Notes: generated by a model from the letters alone, not told the origin. A stretch of 61,496 nucleotides of DNA from a virus (UHGV-1354897); one strand, 5' to 3'; positions 1 through 61,490 are shown, counted from the stretch's first letter. Translations and numbers: made by a program.

Positions 1-54
1 CCATAAACTCGTCAAATAATACCAATAGGTACTATATACATTAATAATAAATCC
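1..54. repeat. terminal direct repeat, left copy (identical to 61437..61490)
   Basis: Exact 54-nt identity between window start and end; sequence diverges at position 55. Confidence 0.8.
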
Positions 55-12295: not shown

Positions 12296-14272
12296 ATGCA
12301 ACTCCGCGATTATCAACAGGAAGCAGTTTATAGCGTATTCCGCTATTTTGATGCTGAAAAGGGTAACGCGGGGAACCCTTTGATCCTGTTACCAACAGGG
12401 ACAGGAAAATCGCTCGTTATCGCGGGGTTCCTCGATCTGCTTTATAAATGGTATCCAAACCAGCGCGTAATGATGTTAACTCACGTCAAAGAGTTAATTG
12501 CGCAAAACTATGATAAATTAATGAAAGTCTGGCCTGAAGCGCCAGCAGGTATTTACAGCGCAGGTTTGAAGCGTAAAGAAGTTTATAATCTTATCACATT
12601 TGCGGGGATTGCATCTGTTGCTAAGCATCCTAAAAAGTTCGGCAAGGTTGATCTAATCTTTGTGGATGAAGCGCACCTTATTAGTCCGCGTGATGCAACA
12701 ATGTATAAGAAGTTCTTTGCAGCATTGCGTGAAGTTAACCCGTATTTAAAAATTATCGGTCTTACCGCTACACCTTACCGACTGGGTTACGGCTCAATTG
12801 TTAAGGAAAACGAAGACGATGATGCTTTATTTGATAAAGTAACGTTTGATGCAACTACCCCTGAAGCCTTTAACTGGTTCCTGGAGCAAGGCTATTTGCT
12901 TCCGGTTGTGCCAAAGCGTACAAAGATGGAACTGGACCTCAATGGTGTAGGGAAACGCGGCGGTGAGTTTATTCAGAGTGAGCTGCAAAGTGCGGTGAAC
13001 CGCGACGACGCAACACTCCGAGCACTTGAGGAAGCCATTGAATGTGGTGAAGACCGTCAAAGTTGGCTTATATTTTGTTCTGGTATTGAACACGCTAAAG
13101 ATGCGTGTGATATGCTAAACGATATGGGTATTAGTTGCGGATGTATTCACTCAAAGCTTGATGCAAAAGAGCGTGACGAGATTATTGAAAAGTTCAAGCG
13201 TGGAGAGTTTCGAGCGCTGACAAATAACAACGTCTTAACCACAGGTTTCGACCATCCAATGCTTGATCTGATTATCATGCTTCGCCCAACTGCCTCGGCG
13301 GTGCTATGGGTTCAGATGTTGGGTCGCGGTACGCGTCCGGTATATGCGGAGGGCTTTGATCTTTCCACGCAGGAAGGCCGCTTGCAAGCTATTGCAGCAA
13401 GCCCTAAGCAGAACTGCCTTGTACTGGATTTCAGCGGTAATACGCGTCGTTTGGGCCCTATTAACGACCCTGTTAAACCCAAGCGCCCGGGCGAAAAAGG
13501 TGCTGGTACTGCTCCGGTTAAAGAATGCGATGTGTGCGGGTCGTATAATCATGCATCTGCTCGCTATTGTGGTGGCTTTGCACCAATTCCTATGGACAGC
13601 GTTACACAGGAACAAGTTCAACAATTATATTTGAAGGGATTCAGACTACGTGGAACGGATTATGTTAAAGAAGGATTTTGCGGTCATGAGTTTAAGTTCC
13701 AGACGAAACTTAAAAAGGCAGCAAGTACCGAAGCACTGATCAAACAGGACATTCCGGTAGTTGAAGACTTCAAAGTTACGCATGTGACTTATGCGAAGCA
13801 CACTAAACGCAATGACAGCTCCAAACCTCCAACAATGAAGGTGACTTATTATTGCGGTAGTAAAATATTCAGCGAATGGGTAGCTCTACTTCATGGTGAC
13901 TGGGCGGGTCGTAAAGCGGTCGCATGGTGGAAGAAAAGGACGCATCTTCCTTTACCACAAACTATTGAAGAAGCTCTTGATGTTGCTGCAATGCTTAAAA
14001 CACCGAAATACATCAAAGTTCATACCAATAAGAAATGGCCTGAGATATTGAACTACGATTATGATGGTACGTGTTTCGGTAAGTTTGAAGCTCCACAGGA
14101 CGACGAAGCTATTCAAGTTAAAGTATACGGGCAAGATGGAACAACCGAAGGTCCGAGCTATAACGATGATGTGAGCTGGGATGATATTGTTTCGCAGAAT
14201 ACGCAAGGTATAACAGTGAACAATGTGGTTAATCCTGTACAAGTAGATGATCCAGATTACGTTCCGTTCTAA
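12296..14272 (+). CDS. superfamily 2 DNA helicase (DEAH-type) with C-terminal Cys-rich region
   Basis: Walker A PTGTGKS, motif II DEAH, helicase C-domain features, CDVCGS...YCGG cysteines. Confidence 0.8.
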   Translation: MQLRDYQQEAVYSVFRYFDAEKGNAGNPLILLPTGTGKSLVIAGFLDLLYKWYPNQRVMMLTHVKELIAQNYDKLMKVWPEAPAGIYSAGLKRKEVYNLITFAGIASVAKHPKKFGKVDLIFVDEAHLISPRDATMYKKFFAALREVNPYLKIIGLTATPYRLGYGSIVKENEDDDALFDKVTFDATTPEAFNWFLEQGYLLPVVPKRTKMELDLNGVGKRGGEFIQSELQSAVNRDDATLRALEEAIECGEDRQSWLIFCSGIEHAKDACDMLNDMGISCGCIHSKLDAKERDEIIEKFKRGEFRALTNNNVLTTGFDHPMLDLIIMLRPTASAVLWVQMLGRGTRPVYAEGFDLSTQEGRLQAIAASPKQNCLVLDFSGNTRRLGPINDPVKPKRPGEKGAGTAPVKECDVCGSYNHASARYCGGFAPIPMDSVTQEQVQQLYLKGFRLRGTDYVKEGFCGHEFKFQTKLKKAASTEALIKQDIPVVEDFKVTHVTYAKHTKRNDSSKPPTMKVTYYCGSKIFSEWVALLHGDWAGRKAVAWWKKRTHLPLPQTIEEALDVAAMLKTPKYIKVHTNKKWPEILNYDYDGTCFGKFEAPQDDEAIQVKVYGQDGTTEGPSYNDDVSWDDIVSQNTQGITVNNVVNPVQVDDPDYVPF

Positions 14273-14286
14273 TTGACTTCAACATC

Positions 14287-14320
14287 TAATGCCCCTACTA
14301 TTGGGGCATTACTTATTTAT
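14287..14320 (+). terminator. intrinsic terminator
   Basis: Hairpin AATGCCCC...GGGGCATT followed by T-rich tract. Confidence 0.7.
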
Positions 14321-14331
14321 AGGGGATTGCA

Positions 14332-14826
14332 ATGTACGTCCTGATTGATACAGATAAATTTGAACTCTTGGCAAAGCATCCCAATTGGCTGACACTACAC
14401 CAACTTGGAATTATTTGTTGCCCTGAGTCAACACTGGTGACACCAGTAGACGATTTACATGATCTTGAAGATGTTGATCTTCAAATGCTTTATATTAACT
14501 TGACAGAAAACTTAGGAGCTGCACCTTATGAACGGGAAATCGTTGAGCGCATTTTGTTTGATTACTTTACGCAACTTCCAGAAACAATCCTGGATCACGC
14601 CCAAATCAGCGCACAAGCCGAATTCTGTGTGGAATACGATATCCAAGGCTTTTGCTCACCTCAAATTGGGCAATACGTTCCGTCAATGGATGAAGGACTT
14701 TGGAAACCTGCCCGTGCCAAATACGATGCTGAACGGGAGGGTGGTATTATTTCCGGTGCCAGGGTCGTTTGTGAGCAACCCGCATTGCAAGCCGCATGGA
14801 CACCGGGCAGAGGGGCAAAGAGTTAG
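14332..14826 (+). CDS. hypothetical protein
   Basis: 164-aa ORF. Confidence 0.6.
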   Translation: MYVLIDTDKFELLAKHPNWLTLHQLGIICCPESTLVTPVDDLHDLEDVDLQMLYINLTENLGAAPYEREIVERILFDYFTQLPETILDHAQISAQAEFCVEYDIQGFCSPQIGQYVPSMDEGLWKPARAKYDAEREGGIISGARVVCEQPALQAAWTPGRGAKS

Positions 14827-14838
14827 TAAGTTCTAAGC

Positions 14839-14866
14839 TTGATCAAAAATATTTTTAAAAATATTC
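14839..14866. promoter_or_regulatory. A/T palindrome (AAAAATATTTTT followed by AAAAATATT), candidate operator/promoter element
   Basis: Perfect self-complementary dodecamer just upstream of the Ala/Lys/Glu-rich gene. Confidence 0.35.
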
Positions 14867-14953
14867 AGATAAGGGGTTGCGTGTCACAAAATCCTTTGGT
14901 ACATTTAACCCCGTTGGTAACAAACGAACCCATAACAATTCGGAGTGAAGAGA

Positions 14954-15757
14954 ATGAGCAACATTGAAGACAAAAAAGCTGCTGCCGCAGCCGCTGCTGC
15001 CGCCGCTGCAAAATCTGCTAAACCTGCAAAGAAAGAAGCTACTGTGAATGATGCAGAAGCTAAGAAAGCCGCAGCCGCTGAAGCTGCACGCGTAGCAAAA
15101 GAGAAAAAAGAAGCAGAGAAAAAAGCTGCCGCTGAAAAGAAACAAGCTGAAATCCGCACTGAAGCGGAAAACAAATTCAATGCGATTGCTAACGCTGCTG
15201 AAATCCTGAAAAACTCTTTGGCTACCGTCACCGACGAAAGCACTGTTGAACAGATCACGGAAGCGGAAACTCAGGGATCTGCAAACCTGAAGACCATTAA
15301 AGAAGCTCTGAAAGAGCTGAAAGCTGTCGTTAAGAAGTCTAAAGGTGAAGACCTGTCCGGTGCTGTAACTTCTGCTCAGGGCCTGGTGGATGGTCTGGAA
15401 GCTACTATTAAAGGCTTCAAAGACAAGATCCGTGCTGCAAAACAGGCAGAAAAAGAAGCGGAAAAAGCGCGCGCTAAAGAGCTTCGTGAGAAAGAAAAAG
15501 AAGCTAACCGTATGCCGGAACAGAACGGTGTTCGTCGTCCACAACCGGAAACTTCCTGCGGTCGTGCCTGGGCTCTGATGGACCAGATTAGCGCTACGCT
15601 GGGTCAGCCTGCTCCGATCTCTTATGTTCTGAACCTGGCTGGTCGCCATGGTCTGAACGAAGATACCATTAAAACTCAGTATGCACGCTGGAAGAAATTT
15701 AATGGTGTGACTGGTCGCGTACCTGTACCCGTACCGGAAGCCCTGAACGGCTTGTAA
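14954..15757 (+). CDS. Ala/Lys/Glu-rich low-complexity protein with a conserved C-terminal domain (paralog of 60060..60674)
   Basis: GGAG RBS before ATG at 14954; run of 12 consecutive Ala codons; C-terminus aligns with the 60060..60674 product. Confidence 0.65.
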   Translation: MSNIEDKKAAAAAAAAAAAKSAKPAKKEATVNDAEAKKAAAAEAARVAKEKKEAEKKAAAEKKQAEIRTEAENKFNAIANAAEILKNSLATVTDESTVEQITEAETQGSANLKTIKEALKELKAVVKKSKGEDLSGAVTSAQGLVDGLEATIKGFKDKIRAAKQAEKEAEKARAKELREKEKEANRMPEQNGVRRPQPETSCGRAWALMDQISATLGQPAPISYVLNLAGRHGLNEDTIKTQYARWKKFNGVTGRVPVPVPEALNGL

Positions 15758-15782
15758 TATCAAAACATATCACGTTATAATG

Positions 15783-15810
15783 AAAGCGCCCAATGAGGCG
15801 CTTTCTTTTT
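15783..15810 (+). terminator. intrinsic terminator
   Basis: Hairpin AAAGCGCC-CAATGA-GGCGCTTT followed by CTTTTT. Confidence 0.8.
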
Positions 15811-15826
15811 CACTAGAGGATTTAAG

Positions 15827-16534
15827 ATGAATATTAATCAACAAGCTCCCGAGTCTCGTTCTAAAGAAAACGATATGTATTTAGACGTGCATTCGGTATT
15901 CTCTACCATTCAGGGTGAAGGTCCATTCTGCGGTCAACCTGCGGTATTTGTGCGCCTTGCTGGATGTAACCTGCAATGCCCGGGCTGCGACACGGATTAT
16001 ACTGTTGGTCGTTCTCTTTACCACATTGTTGATATCATGCGTTTAATCGAAAGCCGTAAGCTGGAATCTGGCAATAGCACCTCACTTGTGGTTATCACTG
16101 GGGGCGAACCATTCCGCCAGCAAATTAACCCGTTTATTGAACAACTGTTATCACGCGGGTATCTTGTGCAGATTGAAACGAATGGGTCTATGCCTTTACC
16201 TAAGAACTTTTCCCAGCTACCTGTCATTGTATGCAGTCCTAAGACTTCAAAAATTCATCCTACTGTGCTGTACCGAGCAAACGCATTTAAATATGTGCTT
16301 AAAGCGTGCTGTGTAAACGTGGAAGACGGTTTACCGCTTCAGGCATTAGATCATCAAGCTACGCCATTTATCGCTAGACCTCCGAAGGGGTTCAAGGGTA
16401 AGATATATTTACAGCCAATGGACGAGCAGGATGAAGATCTTAACCACAGTAACATCCAAGCGGTTGTCCAAAGCTGTATGAAACACGGGTACACGTTGCA
16501 GCTTCAGGTTCACAAATATATCGGGGTGGAATAA
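15827..16534 (+). CDS. queE: 7-carboxy-7-deazaguanine synthase (radical SAM)
   Basis: QueE-like N-terminus FSTIQGEGPFCG and cysteine cluster CNLQCPGCDT. Confidence 0.8.
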   Translation: MNINQQAPESRSKENDMYLDVHSVFSTIQGEGPFCGQPAVFVRLAGCNLQCPGCDTDYTVGRSLYHIVDIMRLIESRKLESGNSTSLVVITGGEPFRQQINPFIEQLLSRGYLVQIETNGSMPLPKNFSQLPVIVCSPKTSKIHPTVLYRANAFKYVLKACCVNVEDGLPLQALDHQATPFIARPPKGFKGKIYLQPMDEQDEDLNHSNIQAVVQSCMKHGYTLQLQVHKYIGVE

Positions 16535-16536
16535 CT

Positions 16537-16797
16537 ATGAGCGAAAAATATATGTTTGAAAATCGTCCTATTGATGGTATGACCTGGAACAAACTCCAGG
16601 AAGCTGCTTGTCACGGTGCATTAGTTTGCACTAAAGAGCGCGATGTTGAAAAGGCCGGACCTGTTTATAAACTCCGCGACCCTTGTAATGAAGAATACTG
16701 CTTTGTGTTTAGCGATGAAGCTGAACAGTTTAGTAATCCTTACCGCACCGCTGATGAAGCTGCGGAAATGAGTCGTAAATATGCGGATCAATTATGA
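16537..16797 (+). CDS. hypothetical protein inside the deazaguanine cluster
   Basis: 86-aa ORF between queE and queC. Confidence 0.55.
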   Translation: MSEKYMFENRPIDGMTWNKLQEAACHGALVCTKERDVEKAGPVYKLRDPCNEEYCFVFSDEAEQFSNPYRTADEAAEMSRKYADQL

Positions 16798-16806
16798 GGT
16801 GGAATA

Positions 16807-17019
16807 ATGATCACTTTGGAAGAAGCGAAACAGCATCAGGAAATGATCACTGAGCTGGTAGAAAAACTTAATTCTGCAATTGCTCACGCTACTATGCAGG
16901 GTGTGCATGTTGAATTAGATATTAATCACGTTAGTACAATTGGAGCACGCAATCATCCGATTGTGATGTCAAACGTAACAATCAACCCTTGTGATATTAA
17001 AGGTGTAGAAGATGAATGA
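16807..17019 (+). CDS. hypothetical protein inside the deazaguanine cluster
   Basis: 70-aa ORF. Confidence 0.5.
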   Translation: MITLEEAKQHQEMITELVEKLNSAIAHATMQGVHVELDINHVSTIGARNHPIVMSNVTINPCDIKGVEDE

Positions 17020-17200
17020 AGAAACTGTAATTCTTATGCAGAAAATTCAACGTTTACAGGACGAGTTGAATGACGCTATTTGCCGCGCTGCATCAAAGAA
17101 AATACATTCGGAGCTTGAAATACACCAGCGCCGGGTAACATCTGAAGCGGTGGTGGAACAAGTAGTCATTAACCTCAATATTAGTCTTAAAGGTTTCTAA
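17012..17200 (+). CDS. hypothetical protein inside the deazaguanine cluster
   Basis: 62-aa ORF, coiled-coil-like. Confidence 0.5.
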   Translation: MNEETVILMQKIQRLQDELNDAICRAASKKIHSELEIHQRRVTSEAVVEQVVINLNISLKGF

Positions 17201-17201
17201 A

Positions 17202-17924
17202 ATGAACAAATTAGATAAACTGGTATTCCCTGTAAAAAATCATAACTCCGCCGTTGTGGTCCTGTCTGGCGGTCAGGACAGCGTGACCTGTTTAGGTCTT
17301 GCACTTAATAACTATGATAAGGTTTACGCTATTGGTTTTGCATACGGTCAACGTCACACTGTGGAATTAGCTTGCGCTGAACAGATATGTAAAGAACACG
17401 ATGTCCCATTTGTTGTCTTTGAATTACCTGCTTTGAAACAGATTGGCAATAGCGCTTTAATTGGGAACGAAGGTGATGTTAACGAACATCACGAACAGCA
17501 CAACAACCTTCCAGCAAGCTTTGTGCCAAACCGTAATGCTCTTTTCCTGACTACCGCGCACGCCTACGCGCAGAAAGTTGGTGCCCGATATGTGGTTACA
17601 GGCGTCTGTGAAACAGACTATAGCGGTTATCCGGATTGCCGCCAGCAGTTTGTAGACTTGCTTGAAGCTACGTTAAACGTTGGATATGAAACAGATATTC
17701 ATTTCGTTACCCCGCTTATGCGTTTAAATAAAGCAGAAACGTTTGAGCTGGCGGATAAGGTTGGCTTCTTAACCACAGTAATTGAACAGTCCCATACTTG
17801 CTATAACGGTGTCCGTCGCACTCTGCATGACTGGGGCTATGGTTGCGGTGAATGCCCTGCGTGCAAACTGCGTGCTAAAGGGTACAGTGAATTTATGGAT
17901 AACGCTTACAGCAAACACGTTTGA
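17202..17924 (+). CDS. queC: 7-cyano-7-deazaguanine (preQ0) synthase
   Basis: PP-loop VVLSGGQDS and C-terminal zinc site CYNG...CGECPAC; standalone, no fused amidotransferase domain. Confidence 0.85.
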   Translation: MNKLDKLVFPVKNHNSAVVVLSGGQDSVTCLGLALNNYDKVYAIGFAYGQRHTVELACAEQICKEHDVPFVVFELPALKQIGNSALIGNEGDVNEHHEQHNNLPASFVPNRNALFLTTAHAYAQKVGARYVVTGVCETDYSGYPDCRQQFVDLLEATLNVGYETDIHFVTPLMRLNKAETFELADKVGFLTTVIEQSHTCYNGVRRTLHDWGYGCGECPACKLRAKGYSEFMDNAYSKHV

Positions 17925-18044
17925 TCTTACCGCGAAAACCGCACCGCTAGCGCATTGTTTAGGGTGCGGGAACCCAACTATACTACTAAACCTTTTAAAC
18001 CCAACAACCAGCGAATAACGCTGTTAAAACTGGAGAACAAAAGT

Positions 18045-18524
18045 ATGAAATTTATCGTTGCTTATCTGGCTGCAATTACATTCGTAAACCTGGGCTTTTC
18101 CTACCTTCCAATGCTCAATACGCCTCTTGGCGTGGTCCCGATGATGGCTTTCTTTGTAGGTATTATCTTTGTGTTGCGTGACTACGCACAGCGTAACGCT
18201 GGTAAAGGCGTTATCCCTGCAATGATTGTGGGTTGCATCCTTAGCTGGGTATTTGGGGATCCTGCTGTTGTAGTTGCATCCGTTGCATCCTTTGCTCTTA
18301 GCGAGTTTGCGGACTATGCGGTATACACGATTACTAAGAAGCCGTTTCATCAACGTGTATTTATTAGCTCTTTGGTAGCTGTACCGATTGACTCCATTGT
18401 GTTCTTAAGTATTATAGGTATTGTTAATCCGGGATCAATGGTAGCAATGAGCTTAAGTAAGTTCACAGCATCTGCTATTCTTTGGGTTGTTTACGAAGTT
18501 CATTCACGTACAGCGAGAGCGTAA
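18045..18524 (+). CDS. putative queuosine-precursor transporter-like membrane protein (YhhQ/DUF165-like)
   Basis: Multi-pass hydrophobic protein directly after queC; family assignment from context and general resemblance. Confidence 0.45.
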   Translation: MKFIVAYLAAITFVNLGFSYLPMLNTPLGVVPMMAFFVGIIFVLRDYAQRNAGKGVIPAMIVGCILSWVFGDPAVVVASVASFALSEFADYAVYTITKKPFHQRVFISSLVAVPIDSIVFLSIIGIVNPGSMVAMSLSKFTASAILWVVYEVHSRTARA

Positions 18525-18526
18525 AA

Positions 18527-19114
18527 ATGAAAGATAATTTGAATAAGATTTGGCACCAACACGACGGTAAAGGGATGCCTATTTTTCTTCGTAATGAGAA
18601 GTTTGAAGTTCGTTTGCGCAACGGCACACACGTTAAGAATTTATTAGATGGATGGGATTGGGCTATGGAAGGGCGTTCAGCTATGGATGAAAATAGCCCT
18701 TATAAAGTTCAAGATATTATAGCCTGGCGATATATCGTTGCGGATGATTACGTCAAACAAGCTAGCGAAAACACTCGCTCCGGATTGTACCATCAAGCTT
18801 CTGAAACAAGCATAAGTAATACATTTAATGGTGCAGTTTTTACGAAATATGAACCATCTAAAATTCCCATGAATAAATATCAGAAAATTATTTATGGTAA
18901 AGATCAAAACGGCAATGTTGTAAAGTGCATCGTGGATGTGTATGATGTCTTGGAAGCTTGGAAGACAACTAACCCAGCTTTGCAGCATTTAATTAAAAAA
19001 GCGTTGCAGCCGGGCGAACGCGGTCATAAAAGTCTGGTAGAAGACTTGAAAGATATTATTGCATCCGCACAGCGTGCATTAGAAATTGAACAGTCTAAAG
19101 AGGTATTAAAATGA
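18527..19114 (+). CDS. hypothetical protein inside the deazaguanine cluster (candidate tailoring enzyme)
   Basis: 196-aa ORF between the transporter-like gene and queD; no motif recognised. Confidence 0.6.
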   Translation: MKDNLNKIWHQHDGKGMPIFLRNEKFEVRLRNGTHVKNLLDGWDWAMEGRSAMDENSPYKVQDIIAWRYIVADDYVKQASENTRSGLYHQASETSISNTFNGAVFTKYEPSKIPMNKYQKIIYGKDQNGNVVKCIVDVYDVLEAWKTTNPALQHLIKKALQPGERGHKSLVEDLKDIIASAQRALEIEQSKEVLK

Positions 19115-19647
19115 GCTATACAGTAATTCGTTCACATGAAATTTGCGCCGGACATCGTGTTGTAGGTCACGAAAGCAAATGTCGCCACCTCCACGGTCAC
19201 AACTATAAGTTTCACTTTAAGGTTGCTCCGAAGCATGGATGCGGAAAAGTAGTGACACGAGGAAAGCTGATTGAGGACGGTCTGGACAGCGTTGGGCGCG
19301 TGATTGACTTTAGTGTGGTTAAAACTACGCTCTGCCAGTGGCTAGAAGATAACTGGGATCATAAGTTTCTACATTGGGAAAAGGATATGTTGATCAACGG
19401 ACTGCAATGTTGTATTGAAACGGATACTCAATCTGAACGCGGTTGGCCTACTTTCGGTGAAGGGGATGAAGATCTTAAAGCTTTTAACGATTCACTGGTA
19501 TCTTTGCCGTTCAACCCAACTGCGGAAAACCTAGCTGCATATATGGTTGAAGTGATTGGTCCGCTACTGCTTGACGAACATGGCGTTCAACTTGTAGAAT
19601 GCACCATCGAAGAAACTTCGAAATGTCACGTAAACTATAGCCTGTAA
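19111..19647 (+). CDS. queD: 6-carboxy-5,6,7,8-tetrahydropterin synthase
   Basis: Motif CAGHRVVGHESKCRHLHGHNY typical of QueD/PTPS; longer than bacterial QueD. Confidence 0.75.
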   Translation: MSYTVIRSHEICAGHRVVGHESKCRHLHGHNYKFHFKVAPKHGCGKVVTRGKLIEDGLDSVGRVIDFSVVKTTLCQWLEDNWDHKFLHWEKDMLINGLQCCIETDTQSERGWPTFGEGDEDLKAFNDSLVSLPFNPTAENLAAYMVEVIGPLLLDEHGVQLVECTIEETSKCHVNYSL

Positions 19648-19678
19648 TATGACCACATTAACAAGGAAACTGCAAACC

Positions 19679-20287
19679 ATGTCAAAATTTACTATTAATG
19701 ACGAAAGTATTCAATTTGAAATTACTCGCGCGGTGCGCGCTTTACTAACTCGAATTGAAAATTGCACTGAATTACGTCCAGGTTTGGAAGAGACTCCATA
19801 TCGTGTCGCTAAAGCCTATGCTACATGGTTCGGCGGTTATAATGTGGATATTGCTGGTCTGTTTAAGACCTTTGAAGACGGGGCGGAAGGTTCAAATGAA
19901 ATGGTCATCGTCCGTGATATTCCAGTTTATAGCCATTGTGAACACCATATAGCCCCTATTATCGGTCGCGCTGTTGTGGGGTATGTTCCTAACGGTCGCA
20001 TTGTGGGGCTCAGTAAACTGTCTCGCGTTGTGGATGCTTTTAGTCGTCGACTGCAAGTTCAGGAACGTCTTACTAACCAGATTGCTGACGCTATCCAGGA
20101 ACACCTGAATCCGAAAGCTGTATGTGTTTATATTGATGCCAAGCATATGTGCATGGAGTCGCGCGGTGTTAAGCAGGTATGCGGCAGCTCTACTATTACC
20201 AAAGCGTTCCGGGGCGCTACAGAACTGGAGCATGGTAGCGATATTGGTAAAGAATGGCGCCGGGAGTTCCTCGAAGCTTGTAAATAA
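19679..20287 (+). CDS. folE: GTP cyclohydrolase I
   Basis: FolE signature YSHCEHHIAPIIGRAVVGYVPNGRIVGLSKLSRVV; AAGGAA RBS favours ATG at 19679 over 19649. Confidence 0.85.
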   Translation: MSKFTINDESIQFEITRAVRALLTRIENCTELRPGLEETPYRVAKAYATWFGGYNVDIAGLFKTFEDGAEGSNEMVIVRDIPVYSHCEHHIAPIIGRAVVGYVPNGRIVGLSKLSRVVDAFSRRLQVQERLTNQIADAIQEHLNPKAVCVYIDAKHMCMESRGVKQVCGSSTITKAFRGATELEHGSDIGKEWRREFLEACK

Positions 20288-20304
20288 TAGATAGCTTTAC
20301 AGAT

Positions 20305-20343
20305 CAAGCCCATATCGGTCATAATACTGGTATGGGCTTTTTA
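20305..20343 (+). terminator. intrinsic terminator candidate
   Basis: Stem CAAGCCCATA...TATGGGCTT with long loop followed by TTTT. Confidence 0.5.
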
Positions 20344-20358
20344 GTCATTGGAGGAAAT

Positions 20359-20565
20359 ATGGTAAGACAATACTTTTTCAACGTTCGAGCTGTAGAAAAA
20401 GGTACTTTCAGAGTTCTGTTATGTATGGACGGTATTGCTGAAAGCAGTAACGCAAAACAAATTCATGCGGATCTGCATGTTAGAGTTGAACAGATCTTAA
20501 GCGAGCAATGCTTTAAGAAAGAAAATTATCTCATTGAAGTAGTCGCTTTAAACAACGTGGAGTAA
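20359..20565 (+). CDS. hypothetical protein
   Basis: GGAGGA RBS before ATG at 20359. Confidence 0.55.
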   Translation: MVRQYFFNVRAVEKGTFRVLLCMDGIAESSNAKQIHADLHVRVEQILSEQCFKKENYLIEVVALNNVE

Positions 20566-20568
20566 GAA

Positions 20569-21489
20569 ATGAACGTTTTTATGGCAGCAGTTTACACAAA
20601 CGGATATATGCCCGGGCAGCAGCGCTATGAAAAGCTGTCCGAGCATGAGAAAAATATCACGCGCAATCTGCCCCATATTTTGGAATCATACCACTACGTT
20701 GGACGTCAGAAGTATGTTGATCAAATGCGTGCGGATGGGGCTAAAGTGTTTCTCGACTCCGGTGCATTCTCCGCGCACTCGTTAGGTGCTCACATTGATA
20801 TTGTTGAATACTGCGAATACATCAAGCGCAACAAAGACATCCTTCGCGTAGAAGATGGTGCGGTGATGGCGTCAGTGCTCGATGGTATCGGTGATCCGTT
20901 GCAGACCTACCGTAACCAACTTGAAATGGAAGCACGCGGTGCTAAACCGTTACCTTGCTTTCACTTTGGGGAGGACTTCCGCTATCTTGAATACTACATG
21001 AAGAACTACGAATATATCACCATCGGGGGCATGGTAGGACGTTCCACAGACACGCTTAAAACTTGGCTGGACCGCATGTGGGACAAATACATTTGCGACG
21101 GTAGCGGACGTGCTAAGATTAAACTTCATGCGTTTGGTATTACGTCCACAACCATTATGGAACGTTATCCGTGGTATAGCTGTGACTCTTCCTCCTGGAT
21201 TCAAGCAGCAGCGTTTGGAAGTGTGGTTACTCCTCCGTGGGGCCCAATGCGCGTATCAGATAAGTCACCGGACCGCCATCATTTTGGTAAGCATGTTTCA
21301 ACATTAACTGAAATTGAACAAGACGCTGTCCTTAAATACCTTGAGCAAAACGGTTTCACTTACGAACGTTTATCAACAATCTATGAATCACGTGCTGCCT
21401 TCAACTTATGGGCGTATGGTGTAATTGCTACAAACATTAACGCTACCCATGACGGCACATTCCGTGATCGTGTAATGGAGTTATTTTGA
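20569..21489 (+). CDS. dpdA: DpdA-like 7-deazaguanine DNA transglycosylase (TGT superfamily)
   Basis: TGT-like motif FLDSGAFS; sits directly after folE/queD in the modification cluster. Confidence 0.7.
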   Translation: MNVFMAAVYTNGYMPGQQRYEKLSEHEKNITRNLPHILESYHYVGRQKYVDQMRADGAKVFLDSGAFSAHSLGAHIDIVEYCEYIKRNKDILRVEDGAVMASVLDGIGDPLQTYRNQLEMEARGAKPLPCFHFGEDFRYLEYYMKNYEYITIGGMVGRSTDTLKTWLDRMWDKYICDGSGRAKIKLHAFGITSTTIMERYPWYSCDSSSWIQAAAFGSVVTPPWGPMRVSDKSPDRHHFGKHVSTLTEIEQDAVLKYLEQNGFTYERLSTIYESRAAFNLWAYGVIATNINATHDGTFRDRVMELF

Positions 21490-21716
21490 TGGCTAACTTA
21501 AGAAGACCAAAAGGCAAACGTAAATATACTCACACAGGCGTAAGAATTAATTATTACGGTGAAAACAGAGTAGTATTTCTCCACAAGACACCTAAGCAGT
21601 GGCAGGATCCGTCAGGTACATGGTTTAATGCACAAGGAAAACAAATGGGGCTTTACGGATACCCTCCAACCTGCGAATTAGATTTAACCACAATTAGAGC
21701 AATCGAGGATCGCTAA
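21486..21716 (+). CDS. hypothetical protein
   Basis: 76-aa ORF overlapping the dpdA stop. Confidence 0.5.
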   Translation: MMANLRRPKGKRKYTHTGVRINYYGENRVVFLHKTPKQWQDPSGTWFNAQGKQMGLYGYPPTCELDLTTIRAIEDR

Positions 21717-21952
21717 TGACACCAGTATGTGAAGAATATATTACTTCTCAATCTAAAGCTGGGGGTAAAGCGGTAGGTCGTGTTGCTATCGCTAAGTTAA
21801 CAAACGCGGGCTATGAACCAAAAGTCACCCCGCCTCCCCCTGAGCCCTGGATATGGGAGAAAAACGGGGGTCGTATTATAGCCATTACATCGTATATGGG
21901 ACCTTTTAGATTAAAGATTGAGTATCTTGTAGACTTAGATGGGGACTCCTAA
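21716..21952 (+). CDS. hypothetical protein
   Basis: 78-aa ORF. Confidence 0.5.
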   Translation: MTPVCEEYITSQSKAGGKAVGRVAIAKLTNAGYEPKVTPPPPEPWIWEKNGGRIIAITSYMGPFRLKIEYLVDLDGDS

Positions 21953-22905
21953 TGCTTGACGCTCTTAAATTTGTTCAAGGCTCCGTCGCTAAAAAGGAAC
22001 TGGTAGAAGGGCTTACCAGCTTTCTTATCCGTGATGGGCAGGTACAGGGCTTTAACGGTGTTATTGCACTGGGTAGTCCTATTGAGTTGGATATTGATTG
22101 CAAGCCCGAAGCTGGGCCTATGATTAAAGCTATTTCCAACTGCGATGAAACAGTGCAGCTAACAATGATGGCTAACGGTAAGTTAAATATCAAGTCCGGT
22201 CCGTTTCGTGTTGCTATACGCTGCATTGATAAAGAAACGCCGCACGTATTTCCTGAAGGTGATTTGTACGAAATAGACGGCGCTCGCTTCGTGCATGGTG
22301 TAAAGTCCGTTGCTCCATTTGTTGGGTCCGATGCTTCCCGTCCGTGGGCTTGCGGTATCCTGATTAATAACGGTAGCCTGTTTGCTACAAATAACGTCAC
22401 TATTGCGGAATACTGGTTTGGTAATCAGTTCCCTATTGATTGCATAATACCTTCCGTTGCAATTAAAGAAATACTGCGTATTAAAGCTAACCCGACGCAT
22501 ATTCAGGTTAGCAAGAATAACGTAACGTTTCATTATCCGGAAGGTCGCTGGTTGCGGACACAGCTTATTGATGCGGAATGGCCCGATATACGTCGTATTT
22601 TAAATGTTCAATGCAATGCACATCCTGTTGATCCAGGTCTTTTTGAAGGCTTGCATAAAATTAAACCGTTCGCAGAAGACCGACCGCGTGTATATATTGA
22701 AAACGGTCTAGCCCGTACTCACTATGATGATGCAGAAGGTGCAAGCTTCGTATTACAGGACCGCACTATAACGGGAGTGTACAATATTGACATCCTGCTA
22801 TTGCTTGAAAATGTGGTTAAGACGGCGGACTTTAGTTTATATCCGCAACCTTGCGCATTCTTTGGGGAAAACCTTCGCGGTGTATTAATTGGAGAACGTG
22901 TATGA
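21952..22905 (+). CDS. DNA polymerase sliding clamp-like protein (DnaN-like)
   Basis: C-terminal segment LIDAEWPDIRRIL resembles the beta-clamp segment LVDGRFPDYRRVLP (recalled from memory); placed directly upstream of the polymerase. Confidence 0.5.
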   Translation: MLDALKFVQGSVAKKELVEGLTSFLIRDGQVQGFNGVIALGSPIELDIDCKPEAGPMIKAISNCDETVQLTMMANGKLNIKSGPFRVAIRCIDKETPHVFPEGDLYEIDGARFVHGVKSVAPFVGSDASRPWACGILINNGSLFATNNVTIAEYWFGNQFPIDCIIPSVAIKEILRIKANPTHIQVSKNNVTFHYPEGRWLRTQLIDAEWPDIRRILNVQCNAHPVDPGLFEGLHKIKPFAEDRPRVYIENGLARTHYDDAEGASFVLQDRTITGVYNIDILLLLENVVKTADFSLYPQPCAFFGENLRGVLIGERV

Positions 22906-23048
22906 CAAATGAAGAAACATATAAAGAGGCTTGTGATAAGGTTATACTTTCGCGCTCAAATAAAAACCATAAACCTACACCTGCTCCGGAAGGGTTAAGC
23001 GACGATGAACTTTTAAAATGGTTGGAGTCTTTTAAAGATGAGGACTGA
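22902..23048 (+). CDS. hypothetical small protein
   Basis: ATG at 22902 overlaps the clamp stop. Confidence 0.45.
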   Translation: MTNEETYKEACDKVILSRSNKNHKPTPAPEGLSDDELLKWLESFKDED

Positions 23049-25023
23049 TGCTATTGGTTTCTTTTGGCAGGACTTACCGCCTGAGCCAAAAGCAAAGAAA
23101 GAAAAGGTTAAACGTTTACCGCCGGAGCGCACTTGGGAGCGCCCGGATTATCTGCCAAACTTAGAGGAAGCGCGGAACTTCCAATACAACCTGTATACGC
23201 AGGACGAACTTATTCAAGCATGGATTAACCGCGAACCGCTTGTATACGATATTGAATGTTATCCAAACTATTTCTTAATCGCGTTTCGCGGAGTACGGAC
23301 TAAGAAAGTTGTCTACTTCGAAATGTATCACGGTTGTAGTTTGAATTGCTTGTTACTTAACTGGATAATGACAAACTTCCTTATCGTAAGCTTTAACGGT
23401 AACGGGTACGATATGCTAATTGCTACGCTTGCGCTTAACGGCTGCTCTAATGCTCAGCTTAAAGATGCAACCGATAAGATAATCGTTGAAGACTGGCGTC
23501 CTTCTGATGTGTTGAAGAGTTACCGCCTTAAGCGTATGCAGAACGTTAACCACATTGATATTATGGAAGTTCTGCCTGGATCTGGTGGTTTGAAACAATA
23601 TGGCGGACGTGTACATACTCGCCGTATGCAGGATTTACCGTTCAAGCCAAATACAATGCTGACGCAGGACCAGATGTTGATTGCACGCTGGTACTGTATT
23701 AACGACCTTGTACAGACGGAAGAATGTTTTATTGCATTGCAAGAGCCTTTGCACCTTCGTGAAATTATGTCGCAAGAATATGGTGTGGATCTGCGTTCAC
23801 GTTCTGATGCGCAGATTGCAGAAGACGTAATTAAACACGAAATTCAAGCGTTAACTGGTGTGCGTCCCCAGCGTCCCCAAGTTTATCCTGGAACAAAGTA
23901 TGCGTATAACATACCGAACTTTATTCGTTTTCAAACACCTCTGATGAATAGTGTTTTGGATATTGTTCGCGACTGCCGCTTTGTTGTTAGTGATAACGGT
24001 GGTGTTAGCTTGCCCCCAGCGTTAACAGGTCTTGAAATCAAGATTGCGGACGGTGTCTACCGTATGGGTATTGGCGGTCTGCACAGCTCCGAAGAATGTG
24101 CTGGACATGGTAAAGAGCCAGGTATTAAGAAGCGGGACATTGACGTAACGTCCTATTACCCTTCAATTATTCTTAATCAGGGCTTATACCCCGAACAGTT
24201 GGGACCAGCTTTCCTTCGTGTTTATAAAAGCATTGTAGACCGTCGTATTGCGGCTAAGCACTCAGGGGACAAGAACACAGCCAACACGCTGAAGATCGTT
24301 ATCAACGGATCGTTCGGTAAATTGGGTTCAATGTGGTCTGTATTGTACGCGCCACAATTATTGATACAGGTAACTATCACCGGACAGCTATCCCTGTTAA
24401 TGCTTATTGAAGCATTCGAGCTAAACGGTGTTAAAGTAATTTCAGCGAATACCGATGGTATTGTGGTTAAGTATCCCGACCACATGCAGGACTTCGTTGA
24501 TAACATGATCAAGTGGTGGGAATCCGTCACAGGTTTTGAAATGGAATCCACTTATTATGACAAGCTATACAGTGCCAACGTCAATAACTATGTAGCTGTC
24601 AAAGAACCTGATGCAGAAGGTAACGTTGAAGTTAAGCGTAAGGGCTGGTTTGCCAAGACAGGACTTCAAAAGAACTGTACGGGCGAAATTATCATGGAAG
24701 CGGTATGTGAATGCCTGGCCCACGGTACGCCTGTTTCTCGTACTATACGCAATTGCAACGATATTAGAAAATTCATTATCCTACGTGCGGTGAAAGGTGG
24801 CGCGGTATGGAATGGCGAATTTTTGGGTAAGGTTGTACGCTGGTATTTAAGCACCAATGAAGAAACTCCCGAAATAATCTATGCTAACTCGGGCAACCGT
24901 GTAGCTGGTAGCGCGGGAGGTGTCCCAATCATGACGCTACCGGATAAAATACCGGACGACATAGATTATGATGCTTATATAGCTAAAGCAGAGAAGTATC
25001 TCGAAGACATGGGATACGCCTAA
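23038..25023 (+). CDS. DNA polymerase with family B-like motifs (compact, 661 aa)
   Basis: Exo I-like YDIE; motif A DVTSYYPSIIL; motif B KIVINGSFGKLG; motif C-like SANTDGIVV. Confidence 0.75.
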   Translation: MRTDAIGFFWQDLPPEPKAKKEKVKRLPPERTWERPDYLPNLEEARNFQYNLYTQDELIQAWINREPLVYDIECYPNYFLIAFRGVRTKKVVYFEMYHGCSLNCLLLNWIMTNFLIVSFNGNGYDMLIATLALNGCSNAQLKDATDKIIVEDWRPSDVLKSYRLKRMQNVNHIDIMEVLPGSGGLKQYGGRVHTRRMQDLPFKPNTMLTQDQMLIARWYCINDLVQTEECFIALQEPLHLREIMSQEYGVDLRSRSDAQIAEDVIKHEIQALTGVRPQRPQVYPGTKYAYNIPNFIRFQTPLMNSVLDIVRDCRFVVSDNGGVSLPPALTGLEIKIADGVYRMGIGGLHSSEECAGHGKEPGIKKRDIDVTSYYPSIILNQGLYPEQLGPAFLRVYKSIVDRRIAAKHSGDKNTANTLKIVINGSFGKLGSMWSVLYAPQLLIQVTITGQLSLLMLIEAFELNGVKVISANTDGIVVKYPDHMQDFVDNMIKWWESVTGFEMESTYYDKLYSANVNNYVAVKEPDAEGNVEVKRKGWFAKTGLQKNCTGEIIMEAVCECLAHGTPVSRTIRNCNDIRKFIILRAVKGGAVWNGEFLGKVVRWYLSTNEETPEIIYANSGNRVAGSAGGVPIMTLPDKIPDDIDYDAYIAKAEKYLEDMGYA

Positions 25024-55370: not shown

Positions 55371-55763
55371 TTACTCCGCTAATGTGTAAGGAATACCGGA
55401 TGCTTTAATCCGTCTGTACATGTCCATAGTACCAGCTCCGCCCGGAAACACAATAGCGTGATCTGGTTTGGGATCAGTATCCAGCATTACTTGATTGCGG
55501 TAAGCGCCTGCTTGCGCATTATAAGCTCCCTTGGCGTTATACCGTATCTTGGTATTTGGTAAGGAAAGATTGTCCCACGGGGCAGGGAACGCTTCTGTCT
55601 TAACACCGTTGCGCTCTGCCCAATGTGCGCAAATCCGGTCAACACCGTCAGCGTCACCGTGACGAAGTGTGGTTATCCTTCTTTGCGTATGCAACTTATC
55701 CAGTTGAGCATAAATATACTCTACATGTTTAAAATCACGCCCTCCGGTGACGACTAATAGCAT
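55371..55763 (-). CDS. DUF2493-like (SLOG-type Rossmann) protein
   Basis: Pattern VVTGGRDF...LD...HGDADGVD...FPGGAGT matches the DUF2493 consensus as I recall it. Confidence 0.55.
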   Translation of the reverse strand: MLLVVTGGRDFKHVEYIYAQLDKLHTQRRITTLRHGDADGVDRICAHWAERNGVKTEAFPAPWDNLSLPNTKIRYNAKGAYNAQAGAYRNQVMLDTDPKPDHAIVFPGGAGTMDMYRRIKASGIPYTLAE

Positions 55764-61436: not shown

Positions 61437-61490
61437 CCATAAACTCGTCAAATAATACCAATAGGTACTATATACATTAATAATAAATCC
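61437..61490. repeat. terminal direct repeat, right copy (identical to 1..54)
   Basis: Exact 54-nt match to the window start. Confidence 0.8.

What the first reader, a model, noticed from the sequence alone, without database searches (positions are those of the whole stretch)
15827..21489. Complete phage-encoded 7-deazaguanine pathway with DpdA-like transglycosylase, predicting modified genomic DNA
FolE, QueD, QueE and QueC together make preQ0 from GTP, and the TGT-like DpdA is the enzyme class that inserts 7-deazaguanines into DNA. QueC is standalone, and I see no QueF-like reductase, amidotransferase fusion or ArcS-like enzyme, so the simplest prediction is dPreQ0 in the DNA; any deviation would point to the embedded unknown ORFs. 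This is described biology for 9g/CAjan-like phages, but it is the dominant accessory system here and sits inside the replication block.
Basis: partly seen in the sequence, partly recalled or inferred. Interest (0 to 1): 0.75.

Follow-up and report, generated by a model that had tools for sequence, protein, structure and literature searches.

The report
Seuratvirus dPreQ0 DNA-modification gene cluster
This is the well-known gene set that CAjan-like (Seuratvirus) coliphages use to swap about a quarter to a third of the guanines in their DNA for the modified base preQ0 and so resist restriction enzymes; it is real and intact here, but it is ordinary for this phage genus.

The parts
15782..15805 (+). 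Terminator-like hairpin (9-bp stem plus T-run) just upstream of QueE, preceded by a promoter-like TTGTAA-18-TATAAT at 15752-15781. It may mark the 5' boundary of the transcription unit.
   Evidence: Consensus scan. Site counts in the region are not above the shuffled expectation, so this is weak evidence. Inverted repeat I7.
15827..16534 (+). QueE, 7-carboxy-7-deazaguanine (CDG) synthase, radical SAM, 235 aa
   Evidence: phrog_2076 E 2.6e-68. TIGR04322/TIGR04508 QueE E ~1e-27, below the equivalog cut-offs. CNLQCPGC at residues 47-54 and GGEP at 92. 99% identical to CAjan gp45.
16537..16797 (+). orf86, small accessory ORF of unknown function in a variable slot
   Evidence: No Pfam, PHROG or NCBIfam hit. 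Among phage records it is found only in SD04 (100%), plus ~32-42% homologues in 75-76 kb Klebsiella/Erwinia/Salmonella phages. Absent from CAjan; WildeMaa has an unrelated ORF at this position.
16807..17019 (+). orf70, small protein conserved mainly in Seuratvirus, function unknown
   Evidence: phrog_26258 E 2.7e-51. 39 phage records, nearly all Seuratvirus, adjacent to or overlapping QueE where the record is annotated. 97% identical to CAjan gp44. No Pfam hit.
17012..17200 (+). orf62, small Seuratvirus-specific protein, probable tandem paralogue of orf70
   Evidence: phrog_24420 E 1.3e-43. 85% identical to CAjan gp43. A 26-aa segment is 42% identical to orf70, pairwise E 4e-5.
17202..17924 (+). 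QueC, 7-cyano-7-deazaguanine (preQ0) synthase, standalone with no Gat domain, 240 aa
   Evidence: Pfam QueC E 7.1e-75; TIGR00364 243 bits against a cut-off of 150. SGGQDS PP-loop at residue 22; Cys200/215/218/221 cluster. 97.5% identical to CAjan gp42, but only 28-29% to the QueC half of 9g/NP1 Gat-QueC.
18045..18524 (+). YhhQ-like VUT-family membrane protein (putative preQ0 transporter), 159 aa. The ATG at 18045 with a GGAG upstream is the likely start, rather than the TTG at 17955.
   Evidence: Pfam Vut_1 E 1.9e-5 (25.5 bits, just under the 27.2 cut-off) and TIGR00697 E 3e-4. Most homologues carry precomputed PF02592, and distant ones are named queuosine precursor transporter. 98.7% identical to CAjan gp41 'putative preQ0 transporter'. 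Several hydrophobic stretches across the protein, by hydropathy.
18527..19114 (+). orf195, function unknown: a Seuratvirus-specific N-terminal part plus a widespread ~60-aa phage domain at the C-terminus
19111..19647 (+). QueD, 6-carboxy-5,6,7,8-tetrahydropterin (CPH4) synthase, 178 aa, with insertions relative to the 121-position Pfam model
   Evidence: Pfam PTPS E 4.6e-22; phrog_2389 E 1.3e-52. H15-x8-C24-x3-H28-x-H30 motif and D83-H84. 77-81% identical to CAjan gp38, with differences confined to two variable loops.
19649..20287 (+). FolE, GTP cyclohydrolase I, 212 aa
   Evidence: Pfam GTP_cyclohydroI E 1.6e-61; TIGR00063 186.7 bits against a cut-off of 181.6. CEHH at residue 97 and HMCME at 166. 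82-88% identical to CAjan gp37, diverging only at the N-terminus. The weak QueF hits are to the same region of the protein as the GTP_cyclohydroI hit and fall below the QueF cut-offs.
20332..20565 (+). orf77, small accessory ORF of unknown function in a variable slot before dpdA
   Evidence: No family hit. 100% identical in WildeMaa, but only 33% to the CAjan ORF at this position. NP1 has a homing endonuclease in this slot and 9g has nothing.
20569..21489 (+). DpdA (DpdA1 subfamily), DNA guanine/preQ0 transglycosylase, 306 aa

Best explanation
The cluster is the Seuratvirus (CAjan-type) 7-deazaguanine DNA-modification module.

Four phage enzymes convert host GTP to the free base preQ0:
- FolE: GTP to H2NTP.
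- QueD: H2NTP to CPH4.
- QueE (radical SAM): CPH4 to CDG.
- QueC (ATP-dependent): CDG via ADG to preQ0.

DpdA, a TGT-superfamily TIM-barrel transglycosylase, then exchanges guanine for preQ0 in double-stranded phage DNA after replication. It uses Asp206 as nucleophile and Asp63 as general base, and acts at GA and GGC sites. The expected product is virion DNA in which roughly 28-32% of dG is 2'-deoxy-7-cyano-7-deazaguanosine (dPreQ0). This partly shields the genome from type I/II restriction enzymes.

No further tailoring to dG+, dPreQ1, dADG or other derivatives is expected. The YhhQ-like protein plausibly imports exogenous preQ0 as a supplement. The other embedded small ORFs are accessory and are not needed for the chemistry.

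Shown here: gene content, intactness, catalytic motifs, near-identity to CAjan, and motif counts. Inferred from the literature on CAjan: the actual modification, its site specificity and its protective role.
For: - All five enzymes are intact with catalytic or ligand motifs.
- Identity to CAjan: DpdA 99.7%, QueE 99%, QueC 97.5%, YhhQ-like 98.7%, FolE 82%, QueD 77%.
- The window is 93-95% identical in DNA to Seuratvirus genomes, with the same gene order.
- CAjan has dPreQ0 at ~32% of G, all other deazaguanines are <6 per 10^6, and a dpdA deletion removes the modification and restores restriction (PMC6884629).
- The CAjan motifs are GA and GGC (PMC7544227). In CAjan, 23.96% and 4.28% of dG lie in these motifs (PMC10484667).
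- In the window, GA plus GGC hold 28.6% of G, or 63,800 per 10^6 nt.
- No Gat, QueF, ArcS, MTase, formyltransferase or ParB-like gene in 88 ORFs, and no Gat remnant by tblastn.
- 9g and NP1 have only the five core genes in the same order, so the embedded ORFs are dispensable for the pathway.
Against: - Nothing chemical was measured for this phage.
- There is no Pfam TGT hit. The HMMER profile against PDB finds 7ui4 only at E 0.57, and the hhalign probabilities are 2-7%.
- QueE and QueD score below the NCBIfam equivalog cut-offs.
- orf86 is absent from CAjan, and orf77 is only 33% identical to its CAjan counterpart. Their lack of effect on the modification is therefore not covered by the CAjan data.
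Confidence: 0.9

Rival explanations
1. The cluster makes preQ0, but an embedded ORF of unknown function (orf86, orf77, orf195, orf70 or orf62) tailors it further. The virion DNA would then carry a different or additional 7-deazaguanine derivative.
For: Five ORFs in the cluster have no assignable function. orf86 is absent from CAjan and orf77 is only 33% identical to its CAjan counterpart, so CAjan mass spectrometry does not cover them. New tailoring enzymes with unexpected folds (DpdL, DpdM, DpdN) were found recently (PMC10516641).
Against: The ORFs unique to this window are 77-86 aa with no cofactor or catalytic motif. orf70, orf62 and the YhhQ-like gene are 85-99% identical in CAjan and orf195 is 55% identical, and CAjan contains only dPreQ0. 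The orf195 domain occurs in three times as many phage records as DpdA, including 367 Salmonella phage records against 3 that carry DpdA. No Pfam family for known tailoring enzymes (GATase, QueF, DUF5591, DUF3109, formyltransferase) was found in the window.
Confidence: 0.05
2. The genes serve queuosine or tRNA metabolism, as the older 'queuosine biosynthesis / queuine tRNA-ribosyltransferase' annotations imply. They would boost or alter host tRNA modification rather than modify DNA.
For: Public annotations of many relatives still read 'queuine tRNA-ribosyltransferase' and 'queuosine biosynthesis'. The enzymes are homologous to the tRNA pathway.
Against: The essentially identical CAjan DpdA is required for dPreQ0 in DNA. 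The window has no QueF, QueA or QueG and no tRNA genes. The host already has its own Tgt. The DpdA family links to bacterial DNA-modifying DpdA rather than to Pfam TGT.
Confidence: 0.03
3. The cluster is present but non-functional in this isolate, through a defect invisible to sequence inspection or a silenced operon, so the DNA is unmodified.
For: There are no expression or chemical data for this phage. QueD and FolE are the least conserved relative to CAjan (77-82%).
Against: All ORFs are full length with intact motifs. The QueD and FolE differences lie in loops and the N-terminus and are shared with other viable Seuratviruses such as WildeMaa. Such strong conservation across 30 or more isolates implies selection.
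Confidence: 0.02

Closest known systems
Escherichia phage CAjan (Seuratvirus cajan) dPreQ0 system: gp45 QueE, gp42 QueC, gp41 YhhQ-like, gp38 QueD, gp37 FolE, gp35 DpdA
   Same: Same genus, same gene order and same flanks (helicase upstream, clamp and PolB downstream). DpdA is 305/306 identical, QueE 99%, QueC 97.5%, YhhQ-like 98.7%. orf70 and orf62 are shared. QueC is standalone. The predicted fraction of G in GA and GGC (28.6%) matches CAjan (28.2%).
   Different: QueD (77%) and FolE (82%) diverge in loops and at the N-terminus. The window has orf86 after QueE, which CAjan lacks. It has one orf195-type gene where CAjan has two (gp40, gp39). It has a different small ORF before dpdA (33% identical) and an extra orf78 after it. 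None of these differences touches a known catalytic function.
BASEL Seuratvirus phages (WildeMaa Bas23, SeppeHuegi, GottfriedDienst, KurtStettler, VogelGryff), Aeromonas phage SD04, KS_A8
   Same: 93-95% DNA identity over the cluster and the replication block. The annotation is identical in kind ('7-deazaguanosine inserting enzyme DpdA', 'dPreQ0 synthase QueC', 'preQ0 transporter YhhQ'). orf77 and the YhhQ-like gene are 100% identical to WildeMaa, and orf86 is 100% identical to SD04.
   Different: Mosaic differences in the variable slots only.
Enterobacteria phage 9g (Nonagvirus) dG+ system, and Pseudomonas phage NP1 (Nipunavirus), which has the same Gat-QueC gene set
   Same: Same subfamily (Queuovirinae). 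Same order queE-queC-queD-folE-dpdA between helicase and clamp/PolB. DpdA is 69-72% identical, QueE 52-63%, QueD 43-73%, FolE 57-77%.
   Different: 9g and NP1 carry a Gat-QueC fusion. In 9g this gives 2'-deoxyarchaeosine (dG+) instead of dPreQ0. Its QueC half is only 28-29% identical to the window's QueC, and no Gat sequence exists in the window. Neither has the YhhQ-like gene, orf70 or orf62.
Pseudomonas phage iggy dPreQ0 system
   Same: The same five-gene chemistry and the same product (dPreQ0), with a DpdA1-type enzyme.
   Different: iggy DpdA modifies GA only (~16.5% of G). The CAjan-type enzyme, essentially identical to the one here, also modifies GGC.
Bacterial Dpd system (Salmonella Montevideo DpdA/DpdB/DpdC; DpdA structure PDB 7UI4)
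   Different: The bacterial enzyme needs the DpdB ATPase, is followed by DpdC (giving dADG), modifies <0.1% of G and is part of a restriction-modification-like island. The window has no DpdB-like or DpdC-like gene, and the phage enzyme is shorter (306 against 413-436 residues in the 7UI4 chain).

Membership tests
Phage dPreQ0 DNA-modification module (FolE + QueD + QueE + QueC + DpdA; CAjan/Seuratvirus type) | GTP cyclohydrolase I (FolE) present and intact | tested here: met
   Pfam E 1.6e-61; TIGR00063 186.7 bits against a cut-off of 181.6; CEHH and HMCME motifs.
Phage dPreQ0 DNA-modification module (FolE + QueD + QueE + QueC + DpdA; CAjan/Seuratvirus type) | QueD (CPH4 synthase) present and intact | tested here: met
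   Pfam PTPS 78.7 bits against a cut-off of 22.4; phrog_2389 E 1.3e-52; His15/Cys24/His28/His30 motif. The NCBIfam QueD equivalog score (62.5) is below its cut-off of 89, probably because of insertions.
Phage dPreQ0 DNA-modification module (FolE + QueD + QueE + QueC + DpdA; CAjan/Seuratvirus type) | QueE radical-SAM CDG synthase present and intact | tested here: met
   phrog_2076 E 2.6e-68; five NCBIfam QueE models at E 1e-20 to 1e-27, all below their equivalog cut-offs; CX3CX2C motif; 99% identical to CAjan QueE.
Phage dPreQ0 DNA-modification module (FolE + QueD + QueE + QueC + DpdA; CAjan/Seuratvirus type) | Standalone QueC (preQ0 synthase) without a glutamine amidotransferase domain | tested here: met
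   TIGR00364 243 bits against a cut-off of 150; the QueC domain spans residues 17-231 of 240. The Gat half of 9g Gat-QueC has no tblastn match in the window at E<=1 (only chance-level matches at E 3.6-9.1).
Phage dPreQ0 DNA-modification module (FolE + QueD + QueE + QueC + DpdA; CAjan/Seuratvirus type) | No downstream tailoring enzyme (QueF, ArcS, Gat, DpdC, DpdL/M/N-type) | tested here: met
   Pfam scans of 42 + 36 + 10 ORFs found no GATase, QueF (other than a sub-threshold hit on the same region of FolE as its GTP_cyclohydroI hit), DUF5591, DUF3109, formyltransferase or methyltransferase family. A novel enzyme among the small unknown ORFs cannot be strictly excluded.
Phage dPreQ0 DNA-modification module (FolE + QueD + QueE + QueC + DpdA; CAjan/Seuratvirus type) | dPreQ0 actually present in virion DNA, dependent on dpdA | not testable with these tools
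   Shown for CAjan by LC-MS/MS and a dpdA deletion (PMC6884629). Inferred here from 99.7% DpdA identity.
DpdA1 subfamily of DNA guanine transglycosylases (TGT superfamily) | Orthology to an experimentally validated phage DpdA | tested here: met
   305/306 identical to CAjan gp35 and 69% identical to 9g DpdA.
DpdA1 subfamily of DNA guanine transglycosylases (TGT superfamily) | Two catalytic aspartates and the preQ0/guanine pocket residues | tested here: met
   D63, S64, F67, D105, H132, G153, G154, F189 and D206 are all present. D206 is invariant across the 102 representatives (30-66% identical to the window protein). D63, S64, D105, H132, G153, G154 and F189 are at least 90% conserved; F67 is not on that list. 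The residue assignments are from PMC7544227.
DpdA1 subfamily of DNA guanine transglycosylases (TGT superfamily) | TGT-type (beta/alpha)8 barrel fold | tested here: inconclusive
DpdA1 subfamily of DNA guanine transglycosylases (TGT superfamily) | Sequence-profile match to TGT (Pfam PF01702) or bacterial DpdA (NCBIfam NF041059) | tested here: not met
   No PF01702 hit for this ORF, even at E<=10, or for any of 102 family members at E<=0.01. NF041059 gives E 0.002 and 16.9 bits against a cut-off of 200. However, 44 of 102 family members hit NF041059, best E 1e-7, and it is the only recurrent family. This is a transitive link. The protein is not a member of the bacterial equivalog, consistent with its being a separate subfamily.
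YhhQ / VUT family (PF02592) queuosine-precursor transporters | Profile match and multi-pass membrane topology | tested here: inconclusive
   Vut_1 25.5 bits, just under the 27.2 cut-off; TIGR00697 E 3e-4. Most homologues in the 5.8-billion-protein search carry PF02592, and distant ones (45-49% identity over 63% of the query) are named queuosine precursor transporter. Several hydrophobic stretches across the protein. At 159 aa it is shorter than those cellular homologues (164-201 aa). Transport of preQ0 is untested.
Nonagvirus/9g-type dG+ (2'-deoxyarchaeosine) system | Gat-QueC fusion (amidotransferase domain) | tested here: not met
   No Gat domain by Pfam or by tblastn with the 9g protein. 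The window is therefore not a dG+ system.

The most novel reading that the evidence does not exclude
One of the accessory ORFs embedded in the cluster is a functional partner of the modification system rather than an unrelated accessory gene. Candidates are the orf195 family, whose conserved 60-aa C-terminal domain also sits inside the 9g cluster as gp07; the Seuratvirus-specific orf70/orf62 pair beside QueE; and the YhhQ-like transporter. Such a partner might channel preQ0 away from host QueF/Tgt, import exogenous preQ0 to raise modification density, or tune DpdA timing or specificity.
Probability: 0.07. Interest if true: 0.4.

Novelty: already known. Interest (0 to 1): 0.12.

Why it matters
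For this genome it gives a safe functional annotation. The DNA is expected to be partly resistant to many type I/II restriction enzymes and, by analogy with iggy, to Cas9 at modified PAMs. It should also give altered nanopore signals at GA and GGC and show atypical digestion patterns in the laboratory. It adds no new biology: the cluster is the published signature of Seuratvirus and Queuovirinae.

One practical lesson is that DpdA1 cannot be recognised with the Pfam TGT model. Automated pipelines will therefore label it hypothetical unless they use PHROGs or comparison with CAjan.

Tried and rejected
1. **orf195 as a T7 gp1.7-like (DUF3310) nucleotide kinase domain.** I recalled a motif resemblance. 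T7 gp1.7 does hit DUF3310 (E 4.5e-23). orf195 and 41 homologues do not, BLASTP is insignificant and hhalign gives 3.7% probability. Rejected.
3. **A preQ1 riboswitch or other RNA element upstream of the yhhQ-like gene.** Rfam gave nothing at gathering threshold in the whole window and only chance-level hits at E<=5 in 14200-22000. The 120-nt spacer folds with z = -1.76, which is not significant, and the sequences are too similar for covariation analysis.
4. **A degraded Gat domain among orf86, orf70 and orf62.** tblastn with 9g Gat-QueC found none.
5. **Direct sequence links from DpdA to TGT.** phmmer and profile searches against PDB found nothing, or 7ui4 only at E 0.57. hhalign against E. 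coli Tgt gave 2-7% probability, although it aligned the DSGAF and DSGGF motifs. Pfam on 102 family members gave no TGT hit. Foldseek against PDB was non-discriminating.
6. **Promoter and terminator scan.** Site counts were not above the shuffled expectation.
7. **Repeat scan of 14200-23200.** It showed only the Ala-codon repeats of the upstream gene and chance-level short repeats.

Full report
**1. What is in the sequence**

Eleven + strand ORFs fill window 15827-21489 with almost no gaps. In order they are:

| ORF | Coordinates |
|---|---|
| QueE | 15827-16534 |
| orf86 | 16537-16797 |
| orf70 | 16807-17019 |
| orf62 | 17012-17200 |
| QueC | 17202-17924 |
| YhhQ-like membrane protein | 18045-18524 |
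| orf195 | 18527-19114 |
| QueD | 19111-19647 |
| FolE | 19649-20287 |
| orf77 | 20332-20565 |
| DpdA | 20569-21489 |

The family assignments are far beyond chance:
- QueC: Pfam E 7e-75, and above the TIGR00364 cut-off.
- FolE: Pfam E 1.6e-61, and above the TIGR00063 cut-off.
- QueD: Pfam PTPS E 4.6e-22.
- QueE: phrog_2076 E 2.6e-68.
- DpdA: phrog_887 E 1e-95.

The expected ligand and catalytic motifs are all present:
- QueE: C47-x3-C51-x2-C54.
- QueC: SGGQDS, plus the Cys200/215/218/221 cluster.
- QueD: H15/C24/H28/H30.
- FolE: CEHH and HMCME.

That these motifs are the functional ones rests on established knowledge of the enzyme families.

The flanks are an SF2 helicase (12296-14272) upstream and a sliding clamp (21952-22905) and family-B DNA polymerase (23038-25023) downstream. 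The cluster does sit inside the replication block.

**2. What the window is**

Megablast places the cluster and the first 25 kb at 93-95% identity on Seuratvirus (Queuovirinae) genomes: SeppeHuegi, WildeMaa, KS_A8, SD04, Seurat, slur01 and others. Twenty-eight records cover at least 80% of the cluster. The annotated WildeMaa and CAjan loci have the same gene order and the same functional labels, including 'preQ0 transporter YhhQ' and '7-deazaguanosine inserting enzyme DpdA'. Bases 1-54 recur at 61437-61490, so the window is probably a whole genome.

**3. Comparison with the experimentally characterised relative**

Against Escherichia phage CAjan:

| Protein | Identity to CAjan |
|---|---|
| DpdA | 305/306 (only A288T differs) |
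| QueE | 99% |
| YhhQ-like | 98.7% |
| QueC | 97.5% |
| FolE | 82% (N-terminus differs) |
| QueD | 77-81% (two variable loops) |

For CAjan, LC-MS/MS found 70,628 dPreQ0 per 10^6 nt, about 32% of G. dADG, dG+, dPreQ1 and dQ were each below 6 per 10^6. A CRISPR-made dpdA deletion lost all modification and became fully restrictable (PMC6884629).

Nanopore analysis mapped the CAjan modification to GA and GGC (PMC7544227). In CAjan, 23.96% of dG lie in GA and 4.28% in GGC (PMC10484667). In this window, 6,707 GA and 1,139 GGC sites on both strands hold 28.6% of all G, or 63,800 per 10^6 nt. That is the same expectation.

**4. No further tailoring is expected**

Pfam scans of 78 further ORFs across the window, plus the cluster ORFs, found no GATase, QueF, ArcS/DUF5591, DUF3109 (DpdM), formyltransferase, methyltransferase or ParB-like (DpdB) family. 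The only QueF-type signal is a sub-threshold hit on the same region of FolE as its GTP_cyclohydroI hit.

tblastn with 9g Gat-QueC matches the window only through its QueC half (29% identity, 17205-17888). There is no Gat remnant. The window is therefore the CAjan (dPreQ0) type, not the 9g (dG+) type.

**5. Is DpdA really a TGT-fold enzyme?**

Sequence profiles mostly fail:
- There is no Pfam TGT hit for this ORF, even at E<=10, or for any of 102 diverse family members.
- phmmer and profile searches against PDB sequences are insignificant. In the last of these, bacterial DpdA 7ui4 is the second-ranked hit (E 0.57), aligned over the GGM...SxDS region.
- hhalign against E. coli Tgt has low probability, but the only alignment it produces pairs FLDSGAFS with the Tgt motif TDSGGFQ.

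Positive evidence:
- The ORF hits NCBIfam bacterial DpdA at E 0.002. Of 102 representatives that are 30-66% identical to the window protein, 44 hit that model (best E 1e-7), and it is the only recurrent family.
- D206 is invariant across those 102 representatives, and D63, S64, D105, H132, G153, G154 and F189 are at least 90% conserved; F67 is present here but not on that list. These are the residues Kot et al. assigned to catalysis and the preQ0 pocket.

Negative evidence: Foldseek on the same model did not separate TGT from generic TIM barrels.

I therefore rate my own fold test as suggestive only. The functional assignment rests securely on 99.7% identity to the genetically validated CAjan protein. 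The family has at least 6,513 clusters at 50% identity in public data and occurs in 237 phage records.

**6. The embedded ORFs**

*The 159-aa membrane protein* belongs to the YhhQ/VUT family. Its Vut_1 score is just under the cut-off, but most homologues carry PF02592 and distant ones are named queuosine precursor transporter.

*The remaining ORFs* are not part of the conserved core. In 9g the order is QueE, gp07, Gat-QueC, QueD, FolE, DpdA. In NP1 it is QueE, Gat-QueC, QueD, FolE, HNH endonuclease, DpdA. [quoted passage not shown]
- orf70 and orf62 are largely Seuratvirus-specific and are probable tandem paralogues.
- orf86 is shared only with SD04, with distant homologues in ~76-kb phages.
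- orf77 is 100% identical in WildeMaa but only 33% identical to the CAjan ORF at that position.
- orf195 combines a genus-specific N-terminus with a very conserved ~60-aa domain. That domain occurs in 719 phage records, including 367 Salmonella phage records against 3 that carry DpdA. It often stands alone as a 60-90 aa protein, and it also forms the C-terminus of 9g gp07. It has no Pfam family, is not DUF3310, and has no informative structural neighbour.

Because CAjan shares orf70, orf62, the YhhQ-like gene and an orf195 homologue yet contains only dPreQ0, these ORFs do not change the product. Only orf86 and orf77, which are 77-86 aa with no motifs, are not covered by that argument.

**7. 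Mechanism**

Steps taken from established biochemistry:
- FolE: GTP to H2NTP.
- QueD: H2NTP to CPH4.
- QueE: CPH4 to CDG.
- QueC: CDG via ADG to preQ0.
- DpdA: post-replicative exchange of G for preQ0 in dsDNA at GA and GGC sites, through a covalent Asp206-deoxyribose intermediate, with Asp63 deprotonating the incoming base.

The catalytic roles are inferred from arcTGT by Kot et al.. The post-replicative timing is from PMC10516641. The role of the modification is partial protection from restriction. This was shown in vitro for CAjan, and BASEL Queuovirinae phages showed resistance to type I/II but not type III systems in vivo (PMC8594841).

**8. Other checks**
- No Rfam family, including no preQ1 riboswitch, and no tRNA genes.
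- A terminator-like hairpin at 15782-15805 precedes QueE.
- The 120-nt QueC-yhhQ spacer is about 98% conserved and contains a hairpin and a promoter-like site, but its folding energy is not exceptional.

**9. Verdict**

The novelty class is 'already known': the cluster is the defining, published and experimentally dissected feature of Seuratvirus. Interest is about 0.1. The only residual openings are the functions of the small accessory ORFs and of the widespread 60-aa domain.

Noticed in passing
window 1-54 and 61437-61490: An exact 54-bp direct repeat lies at the two ends of the window; the last 6 bases lie beyond it. The window is probably a complete ~61.4 kb phage genome, with either an assembly overlap or terminal redundancy.
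   Followed up: partly
window 18527-19114 (orf195), especially the C-terminal part at ~18870-19100: A very conserved ~60-aa domain (consensus ...VDVYDVLxAWxVxNPALQHLIKKALQPGERGHK....DLxDIxASAxRAxELE) occurs in 719 phage records, often as a stand-alone 60-90 aa protein. It is also in 9g gp07 and in CAjan gp40 (gp39 aligns only weakly). It has no Pfam family, is not DUF3310, and has no informative structural match. It is an uncharacterised, widespread phage domain.
   Followed up: yes
window 16807-17019 and 17012-17200: orf70 and orf62 share a 26-aa segment (42% identity) and are probably tandem paralogues. The public label 'radical SAM domain-containing protein' on orf70 homologues (phrog_26258, CAjan gp44) has no support: the protein is 70 aa with no Pfam hit. 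The label looks like spill-over from the neighbouring QueE.
   Followed up: partly
window 16537-16797: Among the Seuratvirus-like records, orf86 is present only in Aeromonas phage SD04 (100%). It has 32-42% homologues in 75-76 kb Klebsiella/Erwinia/Salmonella phages. WildeMaa carries an unrelated ORF in the same slot. This is a swappable accessory-gene position directly after queE.
   Followed up: partly
window 17925-18044: The 120-nt non-coding spacer between queC and the yhhQ-like gene is about 98% identical in CAjan and WildeMaa. It contains a hairpin (about 17939-17969) and a TTGTTT-18-TATACT promoter-like site. There is no Rfam match, the folding z-score is -1.76, and the sequences are too similar for covariation analysis.
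   Followed up: partly
window 14945-15757 (+) and 14855-15763 (-): The gene upstream of queE encodes an Ala/Lys/Glu-rich protein with an 11-residue poly-Ala run. The CAjan homologue is labelled 'FtrA domain'. It casts a 302-aa antisense shadow ORF that a naive ORF caller would prefer.
   Followed up: no
window 55371-55763 (-): A 130-aa protein with a YAcAr (YspA/cpYpsA-related SLOG) domain, Pfam E 3e-18, lies among the small genes just upstream of the holin and terminase genes. SLOG domains are linked to nucleotide or nucleotide-derived ligand binding.
   Followed up: no
window 19111-19647 (QueD): QueD is 178 aa, against a 121-position Pfam model. The extra residues form two loops (about residues 42-56 and 94-127), which are the only parts that differ from CAjan QueD.
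   Followed up: no
whole window: There are no tRNA or tmRNA genes and no Rfam family at gathering threshold. Coding strand and GC skew switch near 26-27 kb and 57.5 kb.
   Followed up: partly
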